From Balanoglossus misakiensis (Eukaryota; Animalia; Hemichordata): DNA of 64,000 bases. The notes under the pieces were generated by a model. That model was not told the origin of the DNA. It saw only the letters and a program-made list of their open reading frames with translations, and ran no database searches. Position 1 is the first letter of the stretch; the number at the start of each line of letters is the position of its first letter. The position numbers and the translations under genes were made by a program. Below, piece by piece: positions 36,601-64,000 of the stretch. The stretch lies in assembly GCA_040954595.2 (NCBI GenBank), contig CM082593.2, positions 11,359,477-11,423,476 on the forward strand, given 5' to 3'.

Positions 36601-39600
36601 TGACGCAAAGGTTGACCCCACCAAACACTCAAAATTGATGGGCACGACACTGGCCACTAGCTCTGGCCTGGCTAATCAAGGTTGACGCAAAGGTTGACCC
36701 CACCAAACACTCAAAATTAATGGGCACGACACTGGCCACTAGCTCTGGGCTGGCTAATCAATGTTGACGCAAAGGTTGACCCCACCAAACACTCAAAATT
36801 AATGGGCACGACACTGGCCACTAGCTCTGCCTGGCCTGGCTAATCAATGTTGACGCAAAGGTTGACCCCACCAAACACTCAAAATTAATGGGCACGACAC
36901 TGGCCACTAGCTCTGGGCTGGCTAATCAATGTTGACGCAAAGGTTGACCCCACCAAACACTCAAAATTAATGGGCACGACACTGGCCACTAGCTCTGGGC
37001 TGGCTAATCAATGTTGACGCAAAGGTTGACCCCACCAAACACTCAAAATTAATGGGCACGACACTGGCCACTAGCTCTGCATGGCCTGGCTAATCAAGGT
37101 TGACGCAAAGGTTGACCCCACCAAACACTCAAAATTGATGGGCACGACACTGGCCACTAGCTCTGCATGGCCTGGCTAATCAAGGTTGACGCAAAGGTTG
37201 ACCCCACCAAACACTCAAAATTGATGGGCACGACACTGGCCACTAGCTCTGCATGGCCTGGCTAATCAAGGTTGACGCAAAGGTTGACCCCACAAAAACA
37301 CTCAAAATTGATGGGCACGACACTGGCCACTAGCTCTGCATGGCCTGGCTAATCAAGGTTGACGCAAAGGTTGACTCCACCAAACACTCAAAATTGATGG
37401 GCACGACACTGGCCACTAGCTCTGCATGGCCTGGCTAATCAAGGCCTGGCTAATCAAGGTTGACGCAAAGGTTGACCCCACCAAACACTCAAAATTGATG
37501 GGCACGACACTGGCCACTAGCTCTGGCCTGGCTAATCAAGGTTGACGCAAAGGTTGACCCCACCAAACACTCAAAATTGATGGGCACGACACTGGCCACT
37601 AGCTCTGGCCTGGCTAATCAAGGTTGACGCAAAGGTTGACCCCACCAAACACTCAAAATTGATGGGCACGACACTGGCCACTAGCTCTGGCCTGGCTAAT
37701 CAAGGTTGACGCAAGGGTTGACCCCACCAAACACTCAAAATTAATGGGCGCGACACTGGCCACTAAGCTCTGGCATGGCTAATCAATGTTGACGCAAGGG
37801 TTGACCCCACCAAACACTCACAATTGATGGGCACGACACTGGCCACTAGCTCTGCATGGCCTGGTTAATCAATGTTGACGCAAGGGTTGACCCCAGCAAA
37901 CACTCAAAATTGATGGGCACGACACTGGCCACTAGCTCTGGCCTGGCTAAACAAGGTTGACGCAAGGGTTGACCCCAGCAAACACTCAAAATTAATACGC
38001 GCGACACTGGCCACTAAGCTCTGGCCTGGCTAATCAATGTTGACGCAAGGGTTGACCCCACCAAACACTCAAAATTGATGGGCACGACACTGGCCACTAG
38101 CTCTGGCCTGGCTACTCAAGGTTGACGCAAGGGTTGACCCCACCAAACACTCAAAATTAATACACGTGACACTGGCCACTAAGCTCTGGCCTGGCTAATC
38201 AATGTTGACGCAAGGGTTGACACCACCAAACACTCATAATTGATGGGCACGACACTGGCCACTAGCTCTGGCTGGCTAATCAAGGTTGACGCAAGGGTTG
38301 ACCCCACCAAACACTCAAAATTGATGGGAACGACACTGGCCACTAACCTCTGGCCTGGCTAATCAATGTTGACGCAAAGGTTGACCCCACCAAACACTCA
38401 AAATTGATGGGCACGACACTGGCCACTAGCTCTGGCCTGGCTAATCAATGTTGACGCAAGGGTTGACCCCACCAAACACTCAAAATTGATGGGCACGACA
38501 CTGGCCACTAGCTCTGGCCTGGCTAATCAATGTTGACGCAAGGGTTGACCCCACCAAACACTCAAAATTGATGGGCACGACACTGGCCACTAGCTCTGGC
38601 CTGGCTAATCAATGTTGACGCAAGGGTTGACCCCACCAAACACTCAAAATTGATGGGCACGACACTGGCCACTAGCTCTGGCCTGGCTAATCAATGTTGA
38701 CGCAAGGGTTGACCCCACCAAACACTCAAAATTGATGGGCACGACACTGGCCACTAGCTCTGGGCTGGCTAATCAATGTTGACGCAAAGGTTGACCCCAC
38801 CAAACACTCAAAATTAATGGGCACGACACTGGCCACTAGCTCTGGGCTGGCTAATCAATGTTGACGCAAAGGTTGACCCCACCAAACACTCAAAATTAAT
38901 GGGCACGACACTGGCCACTAGCTCTGCATGGCCTGGCTAATCAATGTTGACGCAAATGTTGACCCCACCAAACACTCAAAATTGATGGGCACGACACTGG
39001 CCACTAGCTCTGCATGGCCTGGCTAATCAATGTTGACGCAAATGTTGACCCCACCAAACACTCAAAATTGATGGGCACGACACTGGCCACTAGCTCTGCA
39101 TGGCCTGGTTAATCAATGTTGACGCAAAGGTTGACCCCACCAAACACTCAAAATTGATGGGCACGACACTGGCCACTAGCTCTGCATGGCCTGGTTAATC
39201 AATGTTGACGCAAAGGTTGACCCCACCAAACACTAAAAATTGATGGGCACGACACTGGCCACTAGCTCTGCATGGCCTGGTTAATCAATGTTGACGCAAA
39301 GGTTGACTCCACCAAACACTCAAAATTGATGGGCACGACACTGGCCACTAGCTCTGCATGGCCTGGTTAATCAATGTTGACGCAGAGGTTGACGCCACCA
39401 AACACTCAAAATTAATGGGCACGACACTGGCCACTAGCTCTGCATGGCCTGGTTAATCAATGTTGACGCAAAGGTCGACGCCACCAAACACTCAAAATTA
39501 ATGGGCACGACACTGGCCACTAGCTCTGCATGGCCTGGTTAATCAATGTTGACGCAAAGGTTGACCCCACCAAACACTCAAAATTAATGGGCACGACACT

Positions 39601-42213
39601 GGCCACTAGCTCTGCATGGCCTGGTTAATCAATGTTGACGCAAAGGTTGACCCCACCAAACACTCGAAATTGATGGGCACGACACTGGCCACTAGCTCTG
39701 GCCTGGCTAATCAATGTTGACGCAAGGGTTGACCCAACCAAACACTCAAAATTGATGGGCACGACACTGGCCACTAGCTCTGGCCTGGCTAATCAATGTT
39801 GACGCAAGGGTTGACCCCACCAAACACTTAAAATTGATGGGCACGACACTGGCCACTAGCTCTGGCCTGGCTACTCAAGGTTGACGCAAGGGTTGACCCC
39901 ACCAAACACTCAAAATTAATACACGCGACACTGGCCACTAAGCTCTGGCCTGGCTAATCAATGTTGACGCAAGGGTTGACACCACCAAACACTCATAATT
40001 GATGGGCACGACACTGGCCACTAGCTCTGGCTGGCTAATCAAGGTTGACGCAAGGGTTGACCCCACCAAACACTCAAAATTGATGGGAACGACACTGGCC
40101 ACTAACCTCTGGCCTGGCTAATCAATGTTGACGCAAAGGTTGACCCCACCAAACACTCAAAATTGATGGGCACGACACTGGCCACTAGCTCTGGCCTGGC
40201 TAATCAATGTTGACGCAAGGGTTGACCCCACCAAACACTCAAAATTGATGGGCACGACACTGGCCACTAGCTCTGGCCTGGCTAATCAATGTTGACGCAA
40301 GGGTTGACCCCACCAAACACTCAAAATTGATGGGCACGACACTGGCCACTAGCTCTGGCCTGGCTAATCAATGTTGACGCAAGGGTTGACCCCACCAAAC
40401 ACTCAAAATTGATGGGCACGACACTGGCCACTAGCTCTGGCCTGGCTAATCAATGTTGACGCAAGGGTTGACCCCACCAAACACTCAAAATTGATGGGCA
40501 CGACACTGGCCACTAGCTCTGGGCTGGCTAATCAATGTTGACGCAAAGGTTGACCCCACCAAACACTCAAAATTAATGGGCACGACACTGGCCACTAGCT
40601 CTGGGCTGGCTAATCAATGTTGACGCAAAGGTTGACCCCACCAAACACTCAAAATTAATGGGCACGACACTGGCCACTAGCTCTGCATGGCCTGGCTAAT
40701 CAATGTTGACGCAAATGTTGACCCCACCAAACACTCAAAATTGATGGGCACGACACTGGCCACTAGCTCTGCATGGCCTGGCTAATCAATGTTGACGCAA
40801 ATGTTGACCCCACCAAACACTCAAAATTGATGGGCACGACACTGGCCACTAGCTCTGCATGGCCTGGTTAATCAATGTTGACGCAAAGGTTGACCCCACC
40901 AAACACTCAAAATTGATGGGCACGACACTGGCCACTAGCTCTGCATGGCCTGGTTAATCAATGTTGACGCAAAGGTTGACTCCACCAAACACTCAAAATT
41001 GATGGGCACGACACTGGCCACTAGCTCTGCATGGCCTGGTTAATCAATGTTGACGCAGAGGTTGACGCCACCAAACACTCAAAATTAATGGGCACGACAC
41101 TGGCCACTAGCTCTGCATGGCCTGGTTAATCAATGTTGACGCAAAGGTCGACGCCACCAAACACTCAAAATTAATGGGCACGACACTGGCCACTAGCTCT
41201 GCATGGCCTGGTTAATCAATGTTGACGCAAAGGTTGACCCCACCAAACACTCAAAATTAATGGGCACGACACTGGCCACTAGCTCTGCATGGCCTGGTTA
41301 ATCAATGTTGACGCAAAGGTTGACCCCACCAAACACTCAAAATTAATGGGCACGACACTGGCCACTAGCTCTGCATGGCCTGGTTAATCAATGTTGACGC
41401 AAAGGTTGACCCCACCAAACACTCAAAATTGATGGGCACGACACTGGCCACTAGCTCTGGCCTGGCTAATCAATGTTGACGCAAGGGTTGACCCAACCAA
41501 ACACTCAAAATTGATGGGCACGACACTGGCCACTAGCTCTGGCCTGGCTAATCAATGTTGACGCAAGGGTTGACCCCACCAAACACTTAAAATTGATGGG
41601 CACGACACTGGCCACTAGCTCTGGGCTGGCTAATCAATGTTGACGCAAAGGTAGACCCCACCAAACACTCAAAATTAATGGGCACGACACTGGCCACTAG
41701 CTCTGGGCTGGCTAATCAATGTTGACGCAAAGGTTGACCCCACCAAACACTCAAAATTAATGGGCACGACACTGGCCACTAGCTCTGGGCTGGCTAATCA
41801 ATGTTGACGCAAAGGTTGACCCCACCAAACACTCAAAATTAATGGGCATGACACAGGCCACTAGCTCTGCCTGGCCTGGCTAATCAATGTTGACGCAAAG
41901 GTTGACCCCACCAAACACTCAAAATTGATGGGCACGACACTGGCCACTAGCTCTGCATGGCCTGGCTAATCAAGGTTGACGCAAAGGTTGACCCCACCAA
42001 ACACTCAAAATTGATGGGCACGACACTGGCCACTTGCTCTGCATGGCCTGGCAAATCAATGTTGACGCAAATGTTGACCCCACCAAACACTCAAAATTGA
42101 TGGGCACGACACTGGCCACTAGCTCTGCATGGCCTGGCTAATCAATGTTGACGCATATGTTGACCCCACCAAACACTCAAAATTGATGGGCACGACACTG
42201 GCCACAAGCTCTG
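30622..42213. repeat. 86-bp satellite array, about 135 copies, with 81-bp variants and higher-order duplications
   Basis: Unit TAGCTCTGCATGGCCTGGTTAATCAATGTTGACGCAAAGGTTGACCCCACCAAACACTCAAAATTGATGGGCACGACACTGGCCAC repeated head to tail with no spacers. Confidence 0.98.
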
Positions 42214-42250
42214 CACTACAGCCCAGTGTGCGCCCTCTTTGTCAGATATT
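42214..42250 (+). repeat. Left bipartite terminal inverted repeat
   Basis: CACTACAGCCCAG-N11-TTTGTCAGATATT. Confidence 0.8.
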
Positions 42251-43247
42251 TCCGTCCCTACTTTCATGGCCTCATGAATAATGTATGAGGCGATTTGTTA
42301 CCGGCAATGGAACGTTCGCAGTTACAACAACATGAAAATGCCGGTAAGTATTACAAGACATTAAACGCATTTATAATGTTTACATCACGTTATCATATTC
42401 TTTAAGGTCTTAAGCTAGTATTGTTATCATTCTCTGATTTCTATTCATTTAATTTCACTGAAAATCTGACCTGGTTTCAAATCGCTATCATTGGTAACTA
42501 TGTAAACAAAGAACATAGCAACCACAACCAAGACAGAAAAACGGCCGAAAAAATCAAATCTTAATGCATTATTCAAAATTTCAAAACCATGAGAGTGTTC
42601 CTAAGACGTTTGTAACTCAGTGTTTTGATTTTCTATCCCCAAAAAGGTCATATGTAGAAATTGATCCAAGCAGAAATTCATCGAGTTTGGCGCGTTCTGC
42701 CTGCGCGTCGCTCTACCATTGATTACAATGGCACAGCTACGCAAATGTCGACTGTCAGGCAAAACATATCGGCAGATTTCTCGAGTTTGAAGCGTGAACC
42801 TATAAAACCAAAACGAGCAGATTGTTCCTTGATATCTATATAACATGTTGATATATCATTTTCGTTCTAAAATGTAAGAGTAAAAATTTTGAACGAGAGA
42901 GTTCTTGCGACAGCGCTTTGAACGCCGCGCGCGTACAGCGTTTAGGCAAAGCAGACGCACACAGAAGGAACTGCGTCCACGCGCAATATACGTAGATTGC
43001 AGCTGATTATACTCAATCAATGTTCCGGTACTTGCAACAGTATGCCAGTACTTCGCAAAATACACAGTCTTTTATATCATCAGGTCTTCTGTAGCGTCAT
43101 TAAATACTGTCTGTTTGGAACTGTTTGACTGAAACAGCTTTCTAGATGACCTTTTATGTTTTCTACAACTTTTCACATTTATTCACATTTAGGAAATGCT
43201 CCATTGTGTAACTCCATCCCAGCTGTGCTCTGGATATAACTCAAATC

Positions 43248-46200
43248 ATGCCTAACAGGAAAAGGACAAACCATTTTGACATCGGGCAGTATGCAGTCCA
43301 ACAAAAAAAAGCCAGAGAAATAGCTAGAGACATACAACTTCAACAGCTGTTAGATGCTGAGTTAGCTGCAAAGACACTGCCAGAAAAGGTTAAGAGCAAG
43401 TCAGAGAATAGATACAAGCTAGGGGCATGGGCAAGAGAGAGAAAGCGTAGACGTGAGGAAGAGGTAGCTCAGTACAGAGAGAAAATGCAGAAATTAGATG
43501 CAAAGAGGAGACTAGTCGACAGGGCCAGTAAGCAACTAAACAGGCTAGCAAAGAAGCAAAGGAGATTAGCTGGAAATAGGGTTAAGCTTAATCAGGAGGT
43601 AAGGTAATTATATAGAAGGAATTTAGCTTCATTTCAGATTTTCACAAGATTTATGATTACAAGCAGAATAGGAAAATATCCACCAAATTAAAGTTTGTAT
43701 ACTTTAAATTATATTACAACTAAGTGAATCATAAAACATTTTGACCTTGCTTTAATGTATATGATATGATTTTATGTGTGTTTGTTTTCTAAATTCTGAA
43801 CTACAGCTTTGAAACACCTCCCTGCTTGACCTTGGCATAACACTGGGGTTTCCATTTATGCATATTGCTTGCTCATGTGACATTGCCTCTCTGTTTGACC
43901 TTGGCATGACACTGGGATTTCCATTCATGTGTATTGCTTGATCATGTGATATTCTCTCTCTGTTTGACCTTGGCATGACACTGGGGTTTCCATTCATGTG
44001 TATTGCTTGCTCATGTGACATGGCCTCCATGTTTGACCTTGGCATGACACGTGGGTTTCCATTTATGTGTATTGCTTGCTCATGTGACATGGCCTCCATG
44101 TTTGACCTTGGCATGACACTGGGGTTTCCATTTATGTGTATTGCTTGCTCATGTGACATGGCCTCCATGTTTGACCTTGGCATGACACTGGGATTTCCAT
44201 TCATGTGTATTGCTTGATCATGTGATATTCTCTCTCTGTTTGACCTTGGCATGACACTGGGGTTTCCATTCATGTGTATTGCTTGCTCATGTGACATGGC
44301 CTCCATGTTTGACCTTGGCATGACACTGGGGTTTCCATTCATGTGTATTGCTTGCTCATGTGACATTGCCTACCTGTTTGACCTTGGCATGACAATGAAA
44401 ATCTGTTTTGTATTCATTTATTAAAGATTGCAGATTTGACATCCCCAAAGAAACAGAAGTGGGTTCATAAAAGCAGCCAGGTTTGTGCTAATAACAGTGA
44501 ATGCCTCACACTGTCCAGAAGTCAGCAACATGAACGCAGAAGTCAGACTCTTCATGCAGCTACAGTCATACACCAGTCATCATCAGGAACAGATATATCT
44601 GCAGGGAGACATGTCAGTGCAAATCCACCAAAATCAGCTCTTGATGGGCTATGGTATACTTTGATCAACAGTGCCACTCCACGTCAAATGGAAAAGTACC
44701 TTCAATCATCAATGAAAATAAATGAATTGGTCATACCAACTTTGATAAAGAAATCAATATCTGAATTTGAGAAAAGTGAAGGTAATTTGACTAGGAGTGT
44801 GCAAGTGTTGTATCAGAATGGGGTTTTGTCAAAACGCAAATACAATGCCTTACGTAATAGTGAGTTGAATCTGTCTAAATTAAAACAACCTAGAAAAGTG
44901 TTGCAATTTCACTTTAGGTGTAACATACCAAGGTTACTTTCCTACAACAAGGTCACTGAATATACACGTGGTTTAGATATAGGAAGTCTTGAACCAATTG
45001 TAACAGATGCAAACAAAGTAGTGGGTATGAAGCGAAATACAGAGCAGATGCTCTTTAAAGTTGCTGACATGTATCTTTGCTTGAGTGAGCACCACCCTAA
45101 CATCCTAAATTGGTTTGGCAAACCGAAGGGCACTTTCCAACTTGCTGTTGGTGCTGATGGGGCTCCTTTTGGAAAATATGGTCAGGCAACTTCCTGGCTT
45201 GTCAGTTTCATCAATGTGGGCCACAGATTAGCAAGCCCTGATGATAATTTCTTGTTGCTAGGGGCTAATCTGAAGGAAGATGACCCAGTCCTGATAGATT
45301 ATGCTAAAAACCTAGCCAAAGAGTTTGAGATCATAGAGGCCAAACAATACACTTTACATGGCCTGAGTGTAAAGTTTAATGTATCTTTGCTGCCATTTGA
45401 TCAAAAGGGATTAGCCTCAGTTTCTGGTGAGTTATCTAATGCTGCTGAGTATTTCAGTTCCTTTGCTAATGTAACAAAAGGTAGCATAGATGAAATAGGG
45501 GCAGATATAGGGCCAGGGAAATTTTGGTCAGAGTGGAGCTATAAGAAAAGAGTAACAGATGCTAATGCAGTGGCAAAATTCAAAGCAAATTTGACAAAGA
45601 AAACAGGTAAGCCTGAAACATCGACAGATCGCTCTAAGGTCACACGTTTCATTGCCTCCAGAAAATCCCGACAGGAATATATTCCACCCCTGGGTAAGTA
45701 TATACAGTGTGCCAAGATAGAACCCCTACATCTAAAAAACAATGCCTGGCAGTATTTCTTTCAAAGGCTTCTTACTGATGCTGTGGCTAAGACTGACCAA
45801 AAAGTCATTGACCATGGTGTGAAATTAGAAAAGCTACCACCAAATTCATGCCTGTACAAATTCCTGCATACACTAAAATATACAGTGAGAGCAGGGAAAC
45901 TATACAATCAAATTGTCAAATATTTTGCTGAGAATAAGGTTAGTACCCATGCCCAATCAGTGAGAGTTCACCGCTTTACAGGGGAAGAATCAAGGAAGTT
46001 GGCATGGTCTTTTATGTCACTGATAGAGTGTTTTAGGGAACCCGGTATCAGTGCACAGGTGAGAGCGAAATTGTCCCTGTATGGTTACATTGGTGTCCTA
46101 CTCAGAGATATAACATCTCTCTGTTCCAGGTTTACCCTACATGAGAGAGATATTGTAGTACTAAGGCAGAAGTGCAAATGGTACTTCAATTTGCATGCGT

Positions 46201-46655
46201 TATTTCTGACCGTAAACAATACTATTTGGCATATAGGATATGTTGTTCCGTGTCATGCATCTCAAATCCACCAGCAGTTCCAAATGGGGCTTGGGCTTAA
46301 TACAATGGAGGGCAGGGAGGCAAAACATCAGCGCCTTCTGGAATACAGCAATAATTCCACCCCTCAAAATAGATGGCCACTAATTTTCAGACATGAGTAT
46401 GTATTGTTGTACTGGTTACGCATGCGAGACCCCGCTTCAGATAACTACAGGGGGGATGGGAGGTCAAATGCCTCCAAAGTAATAAAGTACATCCCAGACA
46501 AATGCTTTGATGACCCATCATACTGTTATTGTGGGAATGTAAAGGAAGAGTTGTCAAATTCCTGTGAAATATGCAGCAGTGAATTTATGTCAGAAATAAA
46601 ACAGTCTGCAATTAGTGGTAAGATCTCAAAAAAACTAAAAAAAATAATGAAATAA
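43248..46655 (+). CDS. RAG1/Transib-like DDE transposase; predicted exons 43248-43598 and 44427-46655 (859 aa)
   Basis: Motifs in RAG1-core order: GADGAPF (cf. SCDGMG, D600), PFDQKGLASVSGE (cf. GYDEKLVREVEG, D708), IEPLHLKNN (cf. IDALHCDIGN), FTGEESRKL (cf. MNGNFARKL), GLGLNTMEGREAKH (cf. SIGAWASEGNESGN, E962). Phase-0 donor GAG|GTAAGG at 43599 and acceptor TAAAG|ATT at 44426 join the frames without a stop. Confidence 0.8.
43826..44393. repeat. 69-bp minisatellite, about 8 copies, inside the predicted transposase intron
   Basis: TTTGACCTTGGCATGACACTGGGGTTTCCATTCATGTGTATTGCTTGCTCATGTGACATGGCCTCCATG repeated. Confidence 0.92.
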
Positions 46656-46946
46656 AATGTGAAAGTTTGAATTTCATGATTCAAAACAATTATTACTGTA
46701 CATGAAATGTACCAGATAGTTTTAGATTTGTATATAACTGTAAGAGAGTTTGTTGTAAATAATCTTTCATTATGAATGTCACAGATTTTGTGCTGCTTGT
46801 ATTGTATTGTTCAAAATATGTATATAGCTTTTTAATCATCCTTTGAAACTAGCTGCTTATGTCAGCTCTGTAGATAACCATGTTTCAAAATAAGTGAATA
46901 AAAACTGAATGATCAATGATTCACCCACAGCGTTCTGTCTGTCGAC

Positions 46947-48251
46947 ATGGTGAGAAGCAAGCGGCAGCCAGCACCCAGGTCCAAGGGACCACAGAGTCAG
47001 AAGTCAACAAGTAACAAAACTGCGGCAGCGACCCAAGAACTAACAACGGATAAAGATCTGCCGGAAACTTCGGAGAAAAAATTAAAGAACGAAGATCTGA
47101 AGGTATATTTCAAAATCTTCAATGAAAAACTACAGGGTTTGAAAGAAATGGACATCATTCACGCCAGTAAGCAGGTGGTTGGTAAAAACGGCATCATCGG
47201 CGTGCAATACATTCCAAGAACAAGACAATGGTTAATTTATGCAAATGACGAGAGGTGTAAAGATAAACTCTTATTGTGCGGCATCGACATTGGAGGAATC
47301 CACATTGTATTGAACCTGTACAGTCCCCCACAGGGTGATAAAACGAGAATTTCAATACACGATGTGCCATTTCACGTGACGAATGCGACGGTTGATGCAT
47401 TTCTCAGTCAGTATTGTGAACAGAAGGAAGCTGTTGTCCGGTGCACGGTCACAGATCCACTGGACGGAGCAAAATACTACAACGGCAATCGGTTCTGTTA
47501 CGTGACATCAGTCAAGAAACCAATCCCAAACTTTGTACAGATGGAGACGGAGACTCAGGACGGTGTGAAAATTTCTTATCCCATTAGAATTTTCTATACC
47601 GGTCAACCAACCGAATGTCGACACTGCAAGGGTGAAGACCACCAAACACGGCACTGCCCGAATCGTCCACCAATGAAATGTTACAACTGCCAACAAAGCG
47701 GCCACAGCGGACGTCTCTGTCCAAAAGGCAAGCAATGCTACAATTGTAAAGGCTTTGGTCACATTGCGGCGAAGTGCCCGAAAACCGTTGAAAACGAAAA
47801 AGCGGTCGACAAGTTTGTGGAAAGTTACTCTAAGCGTGTCAGAGAAGCAGAAAAAATTATCGACATGGCTATTGAAGACATTACGCAGTCAACAACGAAT
47901 CTTGTGACGACAACTGCGGTAGTTCACGCCAATCCAGAGAAAGTGACGACGGAAAAGAAAGATGGCGACGAGCGGGAAAAGAAACCGGTGAAGTCACCAA
48001 CTTCGGAAGACGTTTTCCGGTCGCCGGACAGCTATAGACAGAAAAAGATTGGTATTACGCGGTTCTTCTCAAGACTAGGTTCAAAAAAAGACAAACGTTC
48101 TCCGCCAACTCCGATTGAAAACCTCCAAAAGAAGAGAAGAGAATTTGCCAGCTCCCATTCGACAATCAGCAACATTTCAAGTAATTCGGACTCGCGAGAG
48201 AATCCACAGAGAAGCGATGCGGTTGTAAAGGGAAGACCGAGATCGGCTTAA
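46947..48251 (+). CDS. Tx1 ORF1, gag-like nucleic-acid-binding protein with three CCHC zinc knuckles
   Basis: CRHCKGEDHQTRHC, CYNCQQSGHSGRLC, CYNCKGFGHIAAKC; also NGNRF and IFYTGQP motifs typical of Tx1 ORF1. Confidence 0.9.
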   Translation: MVRSKRQPAPRSKGPQSQKSTSNKTAAATQELTTDKDLPETSEKKLKNEDLKVYFKIFNEKLQGLKEMDIIHASKQVVGKNGIIGVQYIPRTRQWLIYANDERCKDKLLLCGIDIGGIHIVLNLYSPPQGDKTRISIHDVPFHVTNATVDAFLSQYCEQKEAVVRCTVTDPLDGAKYYNGNRFCYVTSVKKPIPNFVQMETETQDGVKISYPIRIFYTGQPTECRHCKGEDHQTRHCPNRPPMKCYNCQQSGHSGRLCPKGKQCYNCKGFGHIAAKCPKTVENEKAVDKFVESYSKRVREAEKIIDMAIEDITQSTTNLVTTTAVVHANPEKVTTEKKDGDEREKKPVKSPTSEDVFRSPDSYRQKKIGITRFFSRLGSKKDKRSPPTPIENLQKKRREFASSHSTISNISSNSDSRENPQRSDAVVKGRPRSA

Positions 48252-48311
48252 ATCGAGTAACTGTGTTTATTTATATATATATATACTTGCTTTTTGTGTG
48301 TGTTTTCATTT

Positions 48312-51300
48312 ATGGCTTGTAAAATAGTTACACTGAACATTAGAGGTATACGAGAAAGAACAAAACGCAACCTTATTTTCAATTGGTGCCGTAGTAAAGG
48401 TTTCCATATTATTTGCTTGCAAGAGACCTATAGTAAAAAGAGTGATGAGAAAATATGGAATAGAGAATGGGGAGGTAACATTTTATATAACCACGGCACA
48501 ATACACAGCTGTGGAGTTGCAATACTTTTTTCAAATAACATCCCTGTTTCGACTAGTGAGGTTCATAAAGACAGCATTGGGAGATTTATCAGTGTAAAAT
48601 TAGATTTAGAGGGATCTTCCCTCCGTCTTTTCAATATTTATGCTCCGAACAGTACTTCTGCCAAATTTTCTTTTTTTGCTAGCCTTTGTAATTTTGTTAA
48701 TCAAGTGATGTTAGATGGCGACCACATTGTAATTTGTGGCGATTTCAATACGATTTTGGATCCAAAGTTAGACAAATTTTCTAGTTGTGACAACGACAAT
48801 GACTGCGTTGATGCCAAGGCAAGGCGTTCTTTAAAAAATATTTTGCAATTGTATGATTTGTGCGACATTTGGCGTAAGTTTCATCCTTATGTTAAGCAAT
48901 ATACCTGGCGGCGGAGAAGGCCTATAACACAAAGCCGTCTAGATTTTTTTCTTGTGTCTAATGGTATTAACAAAAGTACTACTCTGTGTGAAATCATTCC
49001 TGCAAGTTATAGTGATCACATGGCTGTTGTGCTTTCCTTTGTTTATTGTAAGCATGAGAAAGGTCCAGGTTACTGGAAATTCAACAACAGTCTGTTAGAT
49101 GATAATGTTTATTTGAATAAGCTGGTTATTTATATTGAGAATTGTGCAAAAAAGTATAACCATGTGGCTTGTAAACAAACGAAATGGGATTTATACAAGA
49201 AAGCGTTAAAGCAGTTTACGGTTACTTACAGCATTCAGAAAAACTGTCAGCAACGGAGTAAGAAACAAGATCTTGAAGATCTGTTAAAGCAGAGCGAGAA
49301 ATTGTTGTGTAATTTCCCATCAGATGAAAATTATGGGGCATTTCAGAAAACTTACTCTGACCTCAATAGTATTTTAAGTAAAGAGGCAGAGGGTTGTCAA
49401 ATCAGAGCAAGAGCCCGATGGGTGGAAAAGGGGGAAAAAAGCACAAAGTATTTCCTTGGCCTAGAAAAAAGGAACGCCACAAAGAAAAATGTTGTAAAAC
49501 TCGTGACGAAAGAAGGGAAGGTGGTCACTGACCTCGATGGTATTTTGAAGGAAGAAGTCAATTTCTATGTAGAATTGTACAGTAAAAAGCAGACGTCCCT
49601 CAGCTTGGATGATTTCATCAGCAATGCTGGTTTGCCCAATTTAAGTCAGACAGACAGAAATAGTTGTGAAGGATTGATCTCCGAAGAAGAGTGTTGCCGG
49701 GTGTTACGTAAAATGAAAAAGAACAAGTCCCCCGGTTATGACGGTTTTACCATTGAATTTTACTGTGCCTGCTGGCCATTAGTGGGGAATTTGATTATTG
49801 ATTCTTTTAACAGTGCTTTTCAGAATGGCAGTTTGTCAATCTCTCAACAGAGAGGTGTTATCACATTATTACATAAGAAAAACGAACCCGAGCTTTTAAA
49901 AAACTGGAGACCGGTGTCATTATTATGCACTGATTACAAAATTTTGACCCAGGTTTTATCTGACAGAGTGTCAAAAGTTATTTCTAGCATTGTAAATACT
50001 GATCAGGTGGGTTACATCAGAGGGAGATTTGTTGGTGAAACTGTACGTTTAATTGAAGACATGTATCATTACACCGCCAAGCACAATATTCCTGGTGCTG
50101 TTCTGTATGTTGATTTTGAAAAGGCGTTTGATTGCATTAACTGGGAATTCATGCATCAGGCGCTAGAAAGTTTTGGTTTTGGCCCTGAGCTGAGAAGATG
50201 GGCGAAAGTGATTTATTCTGACGTTCAAAGCTGTATAATCAATAATGGGTGGATGTCGAATTTTTTCTCCTTGAAGAGAGGGGTACGCCAAGGATGCCCC
50301 CTTAGTGCGTTGCTTTTTGTCATTTGTGTGGAAGTTTTGGCATGTAAAATTCGTCAGTGTCCTGATATAGAAGGTATACAATTGCCATGTCAAAATTATA
50401 GTAGGAATGTGGTTAAAATTGCACAGATGGCCGATGATACCACTCTATTTCTGAAAGATGAAAAGTCTATTAGAAAAGTTCTTGGTGTATTACAAGATTT
50501 CGAAAAGTTGTCTGGGTTGAAAGTGAACAAAGAGAAAACAGAGGGTGTTTGGCTTGGTAAAAATAGATCATGTAAGAAACATATTATGGGTTTGAAATGG
50601 ACTGATCAACCAGTTAAGGCGCTTGGAGTCTGGTTTGGATATGATAATTTGAAATGCGAGCGGTTAAATTGGGAACCAAAAGTGGCTAAATTTGAGAAAG
50701 TCTTGAATTCATGGGGCAAGAGAGATTTAACGTTTTACGGAAAAGTGCTGATAGTGAATTCGCTTGCATTATCACAATTATCATATCTAGCATCAATGAT
50801 TGATGTACCAGAGCGCGTTATTAAGCAAATCGACAGGTTAATTTACAATTTTATTTCAAAGGGTCTGGGTAAAATGGCCAGAAATGTATTAGCTGGACCA
50901 TTAAACGAAGGAGGTTGTAACATGCCCGTTTTTAAATGGAAAGTGGTTGCATTCAAGTTTATGTGGATTGTGCGTTTAACAAACTGTAAAAATGCATGTT
51001 GGAAGAACTACCCTCTTTATTTATTTGACCCATGTTCGGATTTTTCAATTCTTAAAGATGTACTTTCAAATAGTAGAATTTCAAGAGAACCTTTTGTCTC
51101 AAGATTACCAGTCTTTTATCAACAGGTCTTAAAAGCTTGGAACATTATCCCACCCTGTAAAGATACAGTCAGCACCATTTTGTGGAATTGCAAATATAAT
51201 GTTTTTATTAATCTTAAGCGAAATGTAAATTATATTGAAATTAAGAATAAGAAAGTGGAATTAATGAAATTGAAGACAAAAGATGTGTACAGATTTTTAG

Positions 51301-51800
51301 TAAACCGCATTGCACAGCCAGCCAGCACATTGAGCTGGCAGCACGAGTTTGGGCAAACTACAGATTTAAAAAATGCTTGGTCATTAGCTTACAGAGTAAC
51401 AAAGGAGAACAAATTAAGAGCGTTTCATTGGAAATTTCTGCATAAGAAATGTATAAATAATGTAAAATTGTACCGTTGGAAAATTAGAGAAAATTCCCAT
51501 TGCGTGTTTTGTAATGTAGATGACACAACTCGACATCGCTATTTTGAGTGTACCATCGCCAAAGAAGTATGGCAAATTGTAGATAATATTGGACAAAGGT
51601 TGTATGGCTTGCACAGGCCTTTGAGTTGGCAAAATATTGTATATGGCTTTGAAAAGAACGATAACTTAGATGAGATGAACCTTTTAATTTTGATTGCAAA
51701 ATGGTCTATACACAAGTTTCACTGTATGGAATTACACAAAGCTCGTTTGTATAATCTTGTACAGCATGAACTGAAAATTCGAATGCATAATTTATTGTAG
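48312..51800 (+). CDS. Tx1 ORF2: APE endonuclease, reverse transcriptase and C-terminal zinc finger (1162 aa from ATG 48312)
   Basis: EN motifs TLNIRG, CLQET, GDFN, SRLDFF, SDH; RT motifs KSPGYDG, NWRPVSLL, DFEKAFD, RQGCPLS, MADD; C-terminal CVFC...H...EC. Confidence 0.95.
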   Translation: MACKIVTLNIRGIRERTKRNLIFNWCRSKGFHIICLQETYSKKSDEKIWNREWGGNILYNHGTIHSCGVAILFSNNIPVSTSEVHKDSIGRFISVKLDLEGSSLRLFNIYAPNSTSAKFSFFASLCNFVNQVMLDGDHIVICGDFNTILDPKLDKFSSCDNDNDCVDAKARRSLKNILQLYDLCDIWRKFHPYVKQYTWRRRRPITQSRLDFFLVSNGINKSTTLCEIIPASYSDHMAVVLSFVYCKHEKGPGYWKFNNSLLDDNVYLNKLVIYIENCAKKYNHVACKQTKWDLYKKALKQFTVTYSIQKNCQQRSKKQDLEDLLKQSEKLLCNFPSDENYGAFQKTYSDLNSILSKEAEGCQIRARARWVEKGEKSTKYFLGLEKRNATKKNVVKLVTKEGKVVTDLDGILKEEVNFYVELYSKKQTSLSLDDFISNAGLPNLSQTDRNSCEGLISEEECCRVLRKMKKNKSPGYDGFTIEFYCACWPLVGNLIIDSFNSAFQNGSLSISQQRGVITLLHKKNEPELLKNWRPVSLLCTDYKILTQVLSDRVSKVISSIVNTDQVGYIRGRFVGETVRLIEDMYHYTAKHNIPGAVLYVDFEKAFDCINWEFMHQALESFGFGPELRRWAKVIYSDVQSCIINNGWMSNFFSLKRGVRQGCPLSALLFVICVEVLACKIRQCPDIEGIQLPCQNYSRNVVKIAQMADDTTLFLKDEKSIRKVLGVLQDFEKLSGLKVNKEKTEGVWLGKNRSCKKHIMGLKWTDQPVKALGVWFGYDNLKCERLNWEPKVAKFEKVLNSWGKRDLTFYGKVLIVNSLALSQLSYLASMIDVPERVIKQIDRLIYNFISKGLGKMARNVLAGPLNEGGCNMPVFKWKVVAFKFMWIVRLTNCKNACWKNYPLYLFDPCSDFSILKDVLSNSRISREPFVSRLPVFYQQVLKAWNIIPPCKDTVSTILWNCKYNVFINLKRNVNYIEIKNKKVELMKLKTKDVYRFLVNRIAQPASTLSWQHEFGQTTDLKNAWSLAYRVTKENKLRAFHWKFLHKKCINNVKLYRWKIRENSHCVFCNVDDTTRHRYFECTIAKEVWQIVDNIGQRLYGLHRPLSWQNIVYGFEKNDNLDEMNLLILIAKWSIHKFHCMELHKARLYNLVQHELKIRMHNLL

Positions 51801-52070
51801 GTGTCACATGTTTACATGTACACAGCGTTAGATCATTATGTTGTTGTTGTTGTTGTTGTTGTTCCATTTTTTCTTAAGATATAATAAACAGATGTTAAAA
51901 AAAAAAAAAAAAATGATTCACCCACAGCTATTCAGTTCCTATAAAACATGTTTTTCTTTTTTAATTTTGCTTGGACATGCAACGATGCATGAATTCAAAT
52001 GGACTGACAAAAAGTAATATAGTCAGTTCCAAGAACATGAAAAAATTTCAACAACAGTCTAAATATGATT

Positions 52071-52691
52071 TCACAAATGCTGAGCAACACCATGTTTGTT
52101 CCAGCATCCAAAATGGAAATGTATTGTCACTGTCTCGGCTGATTTCCTGTATCTGACAATCATAGGTTTATCTTCGGTGCAGATAACTTCCACCCGCTTA
52201 CCCTTTACTGTCTTCACCAGAAGTTGTTGGTTTTCATAGTTGACACCTCTACCCAGCACGTAATTCACTTTGTTGATCCAGGTAAATCGAAAGGTAGCAA
52301 TACATGGAGTTTCCCGATCATAAATTCCCATTGAATTACGGGTGGCGCACTTTCGAAATACATCGAAAACTTCCATAGGAACATTCCTACCAAAACTGCA
52401 CTTCCATGGGTTGCGCACTGAGGGTGATGGCTTCATTCTCTGCATAATTGTTGAGCGCCAGTGACGCATCTCCCGTTCGAATACAGGATACACCGGAATC
52501 TGCTGTATCTTCGCAAGCTCCACCATCGTTGCACTACGTTTGCGAACTGTTACATCAACAGCAGCATCGAGATCATCAAAACAATCATGTAGGTTGATCG
52601 AACGGTCGATATTTGTCCTCAATAACTGAAATTTGGCCTCACGCAGCTTACGTTTCACTGTTTTAGAAACATCGATCATGGACGCCGCCAT
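52071..52691 (-). CDS. Uncharacterised 206-aa transposon partner protein, convergent with the transposase
   Basis: Uninterrupted ORF with start context CAAAATGGCG 105 bp inside the right terminus; globular-looking sequence (WKCSFGRNVPMEVF, FHFGCWNKHGVAQH); no kelch or PHD pattern. Confidence 0.7.
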   Translation of the reverse strand: MAASMIDVSKTVKRKLREAKFQLLRTNIDRSINLHDCFDDLDAAVDVTVRKRSATMVELAKIQQIPVYPVFEREMRHWRSTIMQRMKPSPSVRNPWKCSFGRNVPMEVFDVFRKCATRNSMGIYDRETPCIATFRFTWINKVNYVLGRGVNYENQQLLVKTVKGKRVEVICTEDKPMIVRYRKSAETVTIHFHFGCWNKHGVAQHL

Positions 52692-52759
52692 TTTGTATAT
52701 ACGATGCTAGGAACGTGACCCCAGCGTATGACCTCAATTAACATATTTCCGCTTCGCGG

Positions 52760-52796
52760 AATAGCGGACAAATGAACACACTTCTGGGCCGCAGTG
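52760..52796 (-). repeat. Right bipartite terminal inverted repeat
   Basis: Reverse complement CACTGCGGCCCAG-N11-TTTGTCCGCTATT. Confidence 0.8.
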
Positions 52797-55700
52797 CTGC
52801 ATTTTTGGAGTGGTCGAAAGTTTTAACATACAATCAACATGTCATATATGATCAGGGCACCAAATTCGAAGAACAAAGGTTTTTTTATTTTTTTTCTAAA
52901 AATGACATTTTCAAGGAAAATTTGGTAAAACGCAATTTCGTCTGCAGTGAGCCAAATTAGACTGTATTTTGTGGAATTTGTATCGATATATACATACGAA
53001 GAGCATTCTATACTCCATCAGATTTCCGAAAATGTAGAAAACAGGTATTTTTTGTAATTTTCAAAAATTTACCATTTTGACCAAATTGTGGCTAAAATTG
53101 TTATTTTCGTGTTGAATGCCGCCAGTGTCACTGCTTTTAAAAGTCATCAAAACTTTTAACATACAAGCAATTGTTTATATATGATCAGGTCACCGAATTA
53201 AAAAAATAAAGAATGTTTTCCCTAAAAATGACCTTTTTGGTGCAAAAACGAATAAAACGCAATTTTGTATTAAATCAGCTCATTCAGAGTGCATTTTTTA
53301 TAATCAGCACCATTTTTTACATATAATGGAAATTTCATACATCATCAGATATCCAAATATGAAAAAATGATTTAGATTTTAGATGATTGTCCAAAATTAG
53401 CTGATATCTAATAAATGTAGTATTGAACCGTTCCGTCCCCCCCCCCCCCCCCCTACATTATATGCGGTACGCCGATGTCAGCTTACCCGGCAGTACTGCA
53501 GGCCGTGCCCCCAACTAACGTCGGTGTTTGAAACGCCCTGGTTAAATTCGGGCTCTCTCTATAAATTGACAGGCAATAATGCAGTCCTACCCGAACAAAT
53601 GTCGAGTGTTGACCCGCTGTGACTTTCCCTCTTCGGTTTGCCCGACTTAGCCAACGTCTTTGTACTAGAGTGTCGGGTCTTTTGCAGAGCCAGGCCGAAG
53701 GAAATCCGAGTAGATCAACGTGGTCTCTGTACGCGTGTTTCTGCTCTAGAGTGTCGGGTCATTTGCAGAGCCAGGCCTAAGGAATTACGACTTGATCAAC
53801 GTTGCTAACGAACGCTAGTGTCTGTCATGGTGTGCCGGGGTTTTAGTCGAGCCAGGCCGTAGGAGATCTGACTTGATCATCGTGGTCAATGTACGCGTGT
53901 TTCCGCTCTAAAGTGCCGGGGCTTCAGCTAAACCAGGCCGTAGGAAATCCGACGTAATCACCGTTGATAACTTCCGCCAGTCTGTGTCATATAGAGCCGG
54001 TGCACCAGCCGAGTCACGCCGTAGGAAATCTGACTTGATCAACGTGGTCAATGTACGCCTGTTTCTGCTCTAGAGTGCAGGGGCTTCAGCTAAACCAGGC
54101 CGTAGGAAATCCGACGTAATCACCGTTGATAACTTACGCCAGTCTGTGTCATATAGAGCCGGTGCACCAGCCGAGTCACGCCGAAGGAAATGTGAGTAGA
54201 TCATCGTGGTCTCTGTACGCGTGTTTCTGGTCTATAGTGCCAGGGCTTTAGCCAAGCCATGCCGTAGGAAATATGACTTGATCAACGTTGCTTACTAACG
54301 CTAGTGTCTGTCATAGTGTGCCGGGGTTTTAGTCGAGCCAAGCCGTAGGAGATCAGACTTGATCAACGTGCTCTCTGTACGCGTGTTTCTGCTCTAGAGT
54401 GCCGGGGCTTTATCCAAGCCATGCCGTAGAAAATCTGACTTGATCACCGTTGCTAACGTACGCTAGTGTCTGTCATATTGTGATGGAGATTTAGCCGAGC
54501 CAGGCAGTAGAAAAATCGACTTGTTCAACGTTAACAGTGTGCAACTGTTTCTGCTCTAGAGTGCAGGGGCTTCAGCTAAACCAGGCCGTAGGAAATCCGA
54601 CGTAATCACCGTTGATAACTTACGCCAGTCTGTGTCATATAGAGCCGGTGCACCAGCCGAGTCACGCCGTAGGAAATCTGACTTGATCAACGTGGTCAAT
54701 GTACGCCTGTTTCTGCTCTAGAGTGCCGGGGCTTCAGCTGAGCCAGGCCGTAGGAAACCCGACGTGATTACCGTTGTTAACTTACGCCAGTCTGTGTCCT
54801 ATATGTAGTGCCGGGGCATCAGCCGTGCCAGGCCGAAGGAAATGTGAGTAGATCATCGTGGTCTCTGTACGCGTGTTTCTGGTCTATAGTGCCAGGGCTT
54901 TAGCCAAGCCATGCCGTAGGAAATATGACTTGATCAACGTTGCTTACTAACGCTAGTGTCTGTCATAGTGTGCCGGGGTTTTAGTCGAGCCAAGCCGTAG
55001 GAGATCAGACTTGATCAACGTGCTCTCTGTACGCGTGTTTCTGCTCTAGAGTGCCGGGGCTTTATCCAAGCCATGCCGTAGAAAATCTGACTTGATCACC
55101 GTTGCTAACGTACGCTAGTGTCTGTCATATTGTGACGGAGATTTAGCCGAGCCAGGCAGTAGAAAAATCGACTTGTTCAACGTTAACAGTGTGCAACTGT
55201 TTCTGCTCTAGAGTGTCAGGGTTTTAGCCGACTTATGCTGTAGGAAATCTGAGTTGATGAACGGGAATTCAATGTTAGAAAACCCGTGTGGAAGGTATCT
55301 CTACCCGTTTGAAACTAAGAAAAGAATTTATTCTTATTTATTTTGTAAAAAAGACAATTTTTCGAGAGAAAAAAAGTCGAAAATGGTAATTTTGTCTTGG
55401 GTGATTCAAATTATACCGCCTTTTCTGGAATTTGCAGCACTTTTTACAAGAGAACGACACTTCATGCTCCATAACATTTCCGAAAATGAAGAAAAGAGTT
55501 AATTTTTTAGGATTTTTCAAAAATTTACCATTTTTGTCAAAATATGGCCAAAATGGCTATTTTTACTTGAATTCCGTCAATATCTTTGCATTTTTGGAGT
55601 GGTCGAAAGTTTTAACATACAATCAACATGTCATATATGATCAGGGCACCAAATTCGAAGAACAAAGGTTTTTTTTATTTTTTTTTCTAAAAATGACATT

Positions 55701-57841: not shown

Positions 57842-58161
57842 TGTGGGGAAGTATCGTGGCAGTGATCAATACTCCCGGGAGGGGGTTCGAGTATACTGAC
57901 GTCGGAAAAGAAGCGAACGATTCAGTGCTAGGTAAAACACTGGTTTATTACCATCTGAATCCAACAACAAAGTAACACCACAGAGCTCCTTACAAAATGC
58001 TGCCCGAAAGCGCCAAAACTGGGTTATATATAAGTCCCACGAACGCCGGAGCAAACACTCAACAATTACAATAAATCTGCTACAAGTTTGGCGGGAAACA
58101 AAGTCAACTCTGATAGATCCGTCACGTGATCCTTCTGGAGTAAATCTCTCACTTCTCCATA
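57842..58161 (-). repeat. 3' LTR (320 bp) of the BEL/Pao element; PPT at 58162-58170
   Basis: Minus strand GGGGGAGAA then TATGGAGAAGT...ACTTCCCCACA (terminal inverted repeat, TG apparently mutated to TA); TATATAA at about 58025 and AATAAA at about 57944. Confidence 0.8.
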
Positions 58162-63992: not shown

Positions 63993-64000
63993 TGGCCCAG

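What the first reader, a model, noticed from the sequence alone, without database searches (positions are those of the whole stretch)
42214..52796. Intact two-gene RAG1-like transposon in ProtoRAG-style tail-to-tail layout, with a non-RAG2 partner and 3-bp TSD
Seen: CAC-initiated TIRs, CTG on both sides, an uninterrupted transposase with RAG1-ordered motifs (candidate D at 45156, D at 45399, E at 46317) and a convergent 206-aa ORF. Known: Transib has one gene and 5-bp TSDs; ProtoRAG/RAGL has convergent RAG1L and kelch RAG2L with 5-bp TSDs; CACTA and Chapaev3 make 3-bp TSDs. This element mixes those traits and fits none cleanly. Inference: a distinct, possibly undescribed lineage of the Transib/RAG/CMC radiation that recruited its own second subunit, relevant to the origin of two-component V(D)J recombinase. 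Best candidate for a new system in this window.
Basis: partly seen in the sequence, partly recalled or inferred. Interest (0 to 1): 0.9.

Follow-up and report, generated by a model that had tools for sequence, protein, structure and literature searches.

The report
Two-gene RAG1-fold transposon with new partner
This is one copy, interrupted by a retrotransposon, of a jumping-gene family found in corals, sea anemones and an acorn worm; its enzyme is predicted to fold like the antibody-gene recombinase RAG1, and it usually travels with a small gene unrelated to RAG2 that likely helps it move.

Summary
The element is real and belongs to a family, but this copy is not intact. CAC…GTG ends at 42214 and 52796 enclose a spliced transposase gene and a convergent 206-aa gene. 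The transposase model matches RAG1, ProtoRAG RAG1L and HzTransib (Z 20-23, 9-12% identity), with D157/D238/E544 invariant. No Pfam family matches, and the C(2)C zinc motif of CACTA/Chapaev/Transib/RAG1 appears absent. Relatives occur in cnidarians and Ptychodera. The partner gene lies tail-to-tail in 26 of 32 related loci with enough flank, is under purifying selection, diverges in step with the transposase and is not kelch. Relatives have CACGC(T/C)GGG ends; 5 of 12 complete ones show a 3-bp duplication, none a longer one. Near-identical copies sit in different flanks. Verdict: a distinct two-gene lineage of the CMCT clade, not found in eight literature searches; Repbase and Dfam could not be checked. 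It parallels ProtoRAG but is not shown to be close to RAG's ancestry, and the partner's role is untested. The scan earlier noted two-gene RAG1-fold elements in protist and plankton DNA, not matching by sequence.

The parts
42211..42213 (+). CTG, left copy of the apparent 3-bp target duplication; also the end of an 86-bp satellite unit
42214..42249 (+). Left terminal inverted repeat, imperfect and bipartite (13-bp end block, unmatched spacer, second block at 25-35)
   Evidence: junction with the satellite also present in independent contigs
43248..43598 (+). Predicted transposase exon 1: 117 aa, basic, no cysteine; F-x-I-G-Y/W-A motif shared with N-termini of relatives
   Evidence: splice sites inferred, no RNA
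43599..44426 (+). Predicted intron holding a 69-bp minisatellite (43817-44394)
   Evidence: boundaries are one of several possible
44427..46655 (+). Transposase exon 2: RAG1/Transib-fold core with D (45156), D (45399), LH (45726), H (46254), E (46317) and a C-terminal C-x-C-G...C-x2-C motif (46524-46574)
46897..46902 (+). AATAAA, candidate poly(A) signal of the transposase gene, just upstream of the LINE
   Evidence: function inferred
46915..46931 (+). 17-bp target duplication of the LINE, left copy
46932..51911 (+). Nested L1/Tx1-type non-LTR retrotransposon; ORF1 46947-48251 (zf-CCHC), ORF2 48312-51800 (endonuclease, reverse transcriptase, zf-RVT), poly(A) tail; absent from another assembly
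   Evidence: the L1/Tx1 label is recalled from the domain layout
51912..51928 (+). 17-bp target duplication of the LINE, right copy
52071..52691 (-). Partner gene: 206 aa, basic (pI 9.9), predicted N-terminal helical hairpin plus alpha/beta domain; not kelch; conserved in place across the family
52761..52796 (-). Right terminal inverted repeat
   Evidence: junction present in an independent contig
52797..52799 (+). CTG, right copy of the apparent duplication; part of a high-copy repeat whose unbroken copy at 57538-57565 reads through this site

Best explanation
This is a LINE-interrupted copy of a two-gene DNA transposon family whose transposase is predicted to share the RAG1/Transib fold and likely cuts and pastes the element with a 3-base stagger, while the convergent 206-aa gene likely encodes a dedicated helper for transposition. 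Shown: the ends, both open frames, the nested LINE, the family, the tail-to-tail linkage, selection on the partner, copies with different flanks and 3-bp duplications. Predicted: the fold and the D157/D238/E544 triad. Inferred from RAG/Transib: a transposase dimer binds the ~35-bp ends, cuts them out by a nick-and-hairpin reaction and inserts them. Inferred, about 50%: the basic partner binds DNA or the transposase as an accessory factor, as RAG2L and CACTA TnpA do, but it was recruited independently of both. The lineage belongs with the CMCT clade (CACTA, Mirage, Chapaev, Transib) but appears to lack its internal C(2)C zinc motif and carries a conserved four-cysteine motif at the C-terminus. 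Family identity about 0.9, absence from curated libraries about 0.6, helper role about 0.5.
For: Fold: all Foldseek PDB rows shown with E<=0.001 (47 matches counted) are RAG1, BbRAG1L or HzTransib, and the next row is E 0.5. VIA-align gives Z 20-23 over 425-495 residues, rmsd 3.7-6.0, against 12.7 for P element and 6.4 for Hermes. Model pLDDT 89.9. Invariant D, D, E and LH. 84 homologs, named ones from Ptychodera (62%), Nematostella, Porites, Actinostola, Exaiptasia and Paramuricea, with Pocillopora and Acropora among cluster members. Of 80 loci chosen by the transposase alone, a partner homolog lies downstream on the minus strand in 31 of 41 with >=1000 nt of flank and 26 of 32 with >=1500 nt. 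Partner dN/dS is 0.23-0.42 in 13 of 14 measurable pairs; identities of the two proteins correlate (rho 0.51, 0 of 2000 permutations, 16 elements). Copies about 99% alike stop matching at the CAC ends and have different flanks. 3-bp duplications in 4 of 11 metagenome elements (binomial 4.5e-5) plus L081. A contig joins 46928 to 51926 without the LINE.
Against: No transposition or binding was observed. 6 of 32 loci with >=1500 nt of flank (7 of 23 families) show no partner, even with all homologs as queries. 7 of 12 complete relatives lack a matching 3-bp duplication; collapsed assemblies explain L048 against L050 but were not shown for the others. The window's two flanks come from different repeats. 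The dN/dS pairs are not independent, and the correlation would also follow from shared descent alone. The position of the missing zinc motif rests on recalled motif order, not on a residue-level superposition. No tree with RAG1, Transib, Chapaev or EnSpm could be built. In the sample laid, both junctions match the window's and one contig has a 22-nt deletion in the transposase, so current activity in this host is not shown.
Confidence: 0.65

Rival explanations
1. The family is already catalogued in Repbase or Dfam, for example as an animal EnSpm, Chapaev, Transib or unclassified 3-bp-TSD family from Nematostella or Acropora, and only its fold and second gene went unremarked.
For: It is abundant in well-annotated cnidarians. 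CAC..GTG ends with 3-bp duplications are used to file elements as EnSpm (PMC12730594, passages). Neither library is searchable here, and the CMCT tree file in that paper's supplement was cut.
Against: No Pfam family reaches its cut-off in the window protein or in 15 of 84 homologs scanned. All named homologs are 'uncharacterized' or 'hypothetical'. The C(2)C motif said to be shared by all CMCT groups appears absent. Eight searches listed no description.
Confidence: 0.35
2. The partner is not part of the transposition machine but a regulator or anti-silencing factor that acts on host chromatin or damps the transposase.
For: It evolves faster than the transposase (median identity 23% against 40%) and is missing from 7 of 23 families. 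Accessory proteins that counter silencing are known in other transposons (PMC13547354, passages). HzTransib, of the same fold, was solved as a transposase-DNA complex with no partner named (entry titles).
Against: Position and orientation are kept between a probable hemichordate and cnidarians, and selection is about as strong as on the transposase in close pairs; this fits either role.
Confidence: 0.35
3. The layout shares ancestry with ProtoRAG: the tail-to-tail two-gene cassette is old, and the second slot was filled by RAG2L in one line and by this gene in another.
For: Same orientation, CAC ends and bipartite TIRs (PMC7204232 passages). Vertebrate RAG1 scores slightly above HzTransib in both fold searches.
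Against: Identity is 9-12%, whereas RAG1L and RAG1 cores share over 30% (PMC4411706 passages). The family profile does not find RAG1 in the PDB at E<=10. The earliest-branching described RAGL has its genes in tandem (PMC9435367). Convergent layout is one of few options for two genes. BbRAG1L (Z 20.1) and HzTransib (Z 20.0) are tied.
Confidence: 0.12
4. The window's ends and CTG are a chance pairing and the two genes are unrelated neighbours.
For: The two flanks belong to different repeats, the end sequence differs from the cnidarian consensus, and only one pair of junctions was seen in the sample.
Against: 0 of 300 shuffles gave such ends; the same architecture recurs in relatives; the left flank ends in the 5 bases expected if the element had inserted into the right-hand repeat.
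Confidence: 0.03

Closest known systems
ProtoRAG / RAGL transposons (RAG1L + RAG2L); PMC7204232, PMC10629977, PMC4411706 (passages)
   Same: RAG1-type core fold; two genes tail-to-tail between CAC-starting TIRs; overlapping hosts (hemichordates, cnidarians).
   Different: Partner is 206 aa and not a kelch-PHD protein; 3-bp rather than 5-bp duplication; 9-12% identity; C(2)C motif apparently absent; no unequal spacer seen between the two ends in the first 60 bases.
Transib (HzTransib; Nozomi/Hayabusa group); PMC1131882 (passages), bioRxiv 10.64898/2026.08.26.747230 (abstract, section 20)
   Same: Same fold (Z 15-20); CAC ends; some Transibs also make 3-bp duplications.
   Different: Transib is described as coding for one ~700-aa transposase with 5-bp duplications and CACAATG-like ends; here ends are CACGC(T/C)GGG, a second gene is conserved, and the profile does not detect HzTransib by sequence.
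Chapaev / Chapaev3; PMC4079192, PMC4411706 (passages)
   Same: CAC..GTG ends, 3-bp duplication (Chapaev3), invariant LH motif, animal hosts.
   Different: No TWA target (0 of 6 duplications), no cysteine-rich Chapa domain in the predicted N-terminus, C(2)C absent and H(4)H partial, conserved second gene.
EnSpm / CACTA (TnpD + TnpA); PMC12730594, PMC13547354 (passages)
   Same: CAC ends (the window's left end begins CACTA), 3-bp duplication, transposase plus accessory protein.
   Different: No CACTA-type Pfam domain in either protein; TnpA and TnpD come from splicing or tandem genes, not convergent ones; TnpA-like domains are reported only in flowering plants.

Membership tests
CMCT clade (CACTA, Mirage, Chapaev, Transib, RAG1) | DDE transposase of RAG1/Transib fold | tested here: met
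   (predicted model); invariant D, D, E
CMCT clade (CACTA, Mirage, Chapaev, Transib, RAG1) | 5'-CA..TG-3' ends and 2-5 bp duplication | tested here: met
   definition
CMCT clade (CACTA, Mirage, Chapaev, Transib, RAG1) | [quoted passage not shown] | tested here: not met
   No Cys or His column reaches 60% between D238 and H348; Y-F-S-x-F stands where the motif is expected by recalled order
CMCT clade (CACTA, Mirage, Chapaev, Transib, RAG1) | H(3-4)H motif | tested here: inconclusive
   Second H in 62 of 65; first H in 25 of 64; the window has Y there
CMCT clade (CACTA, Mirage, Chapaev, Transib, RAG1) | Phylogenetic placement among the named groups | not testable with these tools
   No tool supplied RAG1, Transib, Chapaev, Mirage or EnSpm sequences; the tree holds family members only
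RAGL / ProtoRAG | Two convergent genes inside CAC TIRs | tested here: met
RAGL / ProtoRAG | RAG2L with six-bladed kelch core and PHD | tested here: not met
   206 aa; model (pLDDT 94.6) is helical hairpin plus alpha/beta; no GG motif; no Pfam family matches more than 1 of 90 members
RAGL / ProtoRAG | 5-bp duplication | tested here: not met
   0 of 12 complete relatives and not the window; only 3-bp matches and one 2-bp match
RAGL / ProtoRAG | Sequence similarity to the RAG1 core (about 26-39%) | tested here: not met
   No hit at E<=10 with the protein or the 80-sequence profile; 9-12% in structural alignment; benchmark
Transib | Single transposase gene | tested here: not met
   Second gene in 16 of 23 families with enough flank
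Transib | CACAATG-like end heptamer | tested here: not met
   Majority end CACGCTGGG over 20 ends; the feature is variable in Transib
Chapaev3 | 3-bp duplication of TWA consensus | tested here: not met
   Length met; sequences CTG, GAT, AGC, ATT, TAG, ATA, 0 of 6 TWA (definition)
Chapaev3 | N-terminal Chapa zinc finger | tested here: not met
   Predicted exon 1 has no cysteine; an unseen exon is not excluded
Chapaev3 | LH motif | tested here: met
   L347-H348 in 80 of 80
EnSpm / CACTA | CAC ends with 3-bp duplication | tested here: met
EnSpm / CACTA | Recognisable TnpD and TnpA domains | tested here: not met
   No Pfam match at cut-off; that plant CACTA proteins have Pfam models is recalled
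Any catalogued Repbase / Dfam family | Match to a curated consensus | not testable with these tools
   No such library among the tools

The most novel reading that the evidence does not exclude
An undescribed superfamily-level lineage of RAG1-fold transposons that lost the internal zinc site and, independently of RAG2, recruited an obligate second subunit of a new protein family in the same tail-to-tail layout. It would be a natural replicate of the step from one-component Transib to two-component RAG, recently mobile in corals and testable in an excision assay.
Probability: 0.3. Interest if true: 0.85.

Novelty: new variant of a known kind. Interest (0 to 1): 0.66.

Why it matters
How a one-protein transposase came to need a partner is an open step in the origin of V(D)J recombination. 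A separate RAG1-fold lineage that carries an unrelated partner in the same layout would let that step be studied as a repeated event. It also defines two unannotated protein families (84 and 122 database hits) that are common in coral genomes and appear there only as uncharacterized genes, and it challenges the C(2)C motif as a universal mark of the clade.

Tried and rejected
No host genome was held, so copy number and empty sites could not be read directly. Complex prediction of transposase with partner: no verdict. Sequencing runs: no RNA holder listed. Fold search of the partner: no Foldseek match at E<=0.001; the wide search was filled by its N-terminal helices (best Z 7.5), leaving the C-terminal domain barely tested; weak rows (YER067W, RnlA, CENP-N, E 0.04-0.14) were not used. 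Partner profile against PDB sequences: nothing below E 1.2. Word search with the partner: no hit; the full HMMER search found 122, of which at least P0104 and P0161 look spurious, and 89 of the 122 were aligned. Viral structures and viral contigs: nothing. Longer fused forms of the transposase: none scored, weak evidence. Prokaryote genomes: one hit, L081, read as probable animal DNA in a bacterial bin. Lanisha (moss) was checked as a possible prior name; the passages give no link. The Atlas tool did not complete. Yuan and Wessler 2011 is not held. L039's TTA/TTA pair was dropped because it uses an internal end-like site; L057 was dropped from the TSD count because only one flanking base is present. 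Contig depth was not used as copy number. The careful tree did not finish; the quick tree was used.
Full report
Observation. The interval begins CACTACAGCCCAG at 42214 and ends with the reverse complement of CACTGCGGCCCAG at 52796; 11 of 13 bases match, an unmatched spacer follows, and a second block matches at positions 25-35. CTG stands on both sides. None of 300 mononucleotide shuffles of the two flanking regions gave such a pair. Three long plus-strand frames and one minus-strand frame lie inside. Two of the plus-strand frames belong to a non-LTR retrotransposon (zf-CCHC; endonuclease, RVT_1, zf-RVT) with a poly(A) tail and a 17-bp duplication at 46915 and 51912. It takes 4,980 of the 10,583 bases; the element without it is 5,586 bp. 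One contig of run X1 runs from 45567-46928 straight into 51926-52826, so a LINE-free form exists.

Flanks. The left flank is the end of an 11.6-kb array of 86-bp units; the right flank is another repeat whose unbroken copy at 57538-57565 reads through the CTG. The flanks share CTCTGCAT. The simplest reading, which is inference, is insertion into the right-hand repeat followed by a microhomology join of the satellite to the left end. Both junctions also stand in contigs of one sample that differ from the window, so they are not an assembly slip, but the window alone does not prove the duplication.

Transposase. The open frame 44382-46655 plus an upstream exon (ATG 43248) gives 859 aa under one of 21 in-frame joins. 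Exon 1 shares an F-x-I-G-Y/W-A start with relatives. A search gave 84 homologs among 7,991 candidates scored: Ptychodera flava 62%, the rest 31-41%, named ones cnidarian. The host is probably a marine invertebrate, perhaps a hemichordate (inference). Neither the protein nor a profile of 80 sequences finds RAG1 in the PDB by sequence; no Pfam family reaches cut-off in the window protein or in 15 of the 84 homologs. The AlphaFold model of residues from 44688 on (pLDDT 89.9) has 47 Foldseek matches at E<=0.001; every such row shown is RAG1, BbRAG1L or HzTransib, and the next row is E 0.5. VIA-align gives Z 20-23 over 425-495 residues for the best entries of the three, 12.7 for P element and 6.4 for Hermes; model residues 27-584 cover RAG1 461-1006. 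D157, D238 and E544 are invariant (79/79, 80/80, 62/62), as is L347-H348. No CACTA, Chapaev or Mirage structure appeared, so the match places the protein in the clade but does not single out RAG1. [quoted passage not shown] Here no Cys or His column reaches 60% between D238 and H348, and the first H of the pair is present in 25 of 64; four cysteines near the C-terminus are conserved in 54-56 of 54-59. The mapping of these positions rests on recalled motif order.

Partner. The 206-aa frame has 122 hits among 1.84 billion representatives, most about 200 aa and unnamed in the ten clusters looked up. No Pfam family matches more than 1 of 90 aligned members. The model (pLDDT 94.6) has long N-terminal helices and an alpha/beta domain, not a propeller. 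The protein is basic: pI 9.9, and 38 of 53 full-length members exceed 9.

Family architecture. A metagenome scan with the transposase alignment found 226 stretches and kept 80 loci, which fall into 48 groups. A partner homolog lies downstream on the opposite strand in 31 of 41 loci with at least 1000 nt of flank, 26 of 32 with 1500 nt and 19 of 23 with 2000 nt; the only plus-strand hits are three 32-residue fragments. By group, 16 carry it and 7 with at least 1400 nt do not, even with all homologs as queries; these 7 are scattered over the tree. One partner cluster and one transposase cluster share nine contig lengths, an indirect sign of linkage. Partner dN/dS is 0.23-0.42 in 13 of 14 pairs with measurable dS (the 14th, 0.76, is a pair only 20% identical), against 0.16-0.62 in 15 transposase pairs; identities correlate across 16 elements (rho 0.51, 0 of 2000 permutations). 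The pairs are not independent. Copies 98-99% alike stop matching at CACGC(T/C)GGG or CACGCCGAG ends and have different flanks (L005/L013/L019, L048/L049/L050, L038/L040/L041/L052), which shows recent movement. I picked the ends by eye. Of 11 elements with both flanks, 4 have a 3-bp duplication (binomial 4.5e-5; three pairs are from the same families), one a 2-bp match and none 4-8 bp; L081 adds ATA/ATA. L048 and L050 share a left flank but only L050 has the matching right flank, as collapsed assembly would give. The TIRs are about 35 bp, with a conserved first 10 bases, a variable middle and a second block in the same register on both ends.

Mechanism. Shown: architecture, linkage, selection, mobility, 3-bp duplication. 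Predicted: fold and triad. Inferred from RAG, BbeRAGL and HzTransib (nick/hairpin cleavage, PMC10629977 passages): a dimer binds both ends, excises the element and inserts it with a 3-base stagger. Inferred, about even odds: the partner is an accessory factor for this reaction. The alternative is a regulator or anti-silencing protein.

Comparison. It works like Transib/RAG1 and is laid out like ProtoRAG (PMC7204232 passages), but fails RAGL on kelch partner, 5-bp duplication and sequence similarity; Chapaev3 on TWA target, Chapa domain and C(2)C (PMC4079192 and PMC4411706 passages); and CACTA on domains and gene orientation (PMC13547354 passages). A 3-bp duplication alone is not distinctive (bioRxiv 10.64898/2026.08.26.747230, abstract and section 20). 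Also seen: PMC1131882 passages, PMC9435367 first of two parts, PMC8245031 passages, bioRxiv 10.1101/2021.09.26.461848 passages, and parts 1 and 19 and searched rows of the PMC12730594 supplement, whose CMCT tree was cut, so its family names could not be read; bioRxiv supplements were not seen. Eight searches listed no description of this family. Repbase Reports and subscription journals lie outside the library, so prior cataloguing remains about 35% likely.

Earlier scan notes. Look-ups by either protein found nothing alike. A word search listed two convergent two-gene RAG1-fold elements with methyltransferase-like fusions from protist and plankton DNA; I did not check them.

Verdict. A real, recently mobile, two-gene lineage of the RAG1-fold clade with an unclassified partner; the window copy is LINE-interrupted. 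New variant of a known kind, interest 0.66.

Noticed in passing
L005 564-799, L038 3128-3234, L048 1170-1267 and 2091-2177, L081 3735-4073: In four separate families an inverted copy of part of the partner gene lies in the left arm (84-96% identity). It could come from template switching between paired ends or make hairpin RNA; the window copy lacks it.
   Followed up: partly
L081 3199-11740: A complete element with an ATA/ATA duplication on a contig filed as an Anaerolineae MAG; the neighbouring ~588-bp tandem repeat suggests misbinned animal DNA rather than a bacterial copy.
   Followed up: partly
window 46932-51911: Full-length L1/Tx1-type element with both frames open, absent from another assembly at this site, with diverged relatives in the same sample; probably a young insertion.
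   Followed up: partly
window 45545: A contig of run X2 lacks 22 bases here, which would break the transposase frame in that allele.
   Followed up: no
window 42540-42860 and 43290-43720: Contigs several percent diverged from the left arm are present in the sample, suggesting related or non-autonomous copies.
   Followed up: no
protein P0172 (Tubulanus polymorphus): A partner-like domain (E 4.6e-5) forms the C-terminus of a Tau/MAP gene model in a ribbon worm; either exon capture or a gene-model join.
   Followed up: no
window 30622-42215: An 11.6-kb array of 136 units of 86 bp, 96% alike, abutting the left end.
   Followed up: partly
window 52797-57850: A high-copy repeat that recurs at 55587 and 57552, interleaved with 81/162-bp tandem arrays.
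   Followed up: partly
window 58337-63998: Long minus-strand frames whose starts look like retroelement polyprotein and reverse-transcriptase pieces (label from recall).
   Followed up: no
L038 3240 (also L037, L039-L041, L052): An internal end-like CACGCCGGG site about 845 bases inside the true left end, next to the inverted partner fragment.
   Followed up: no
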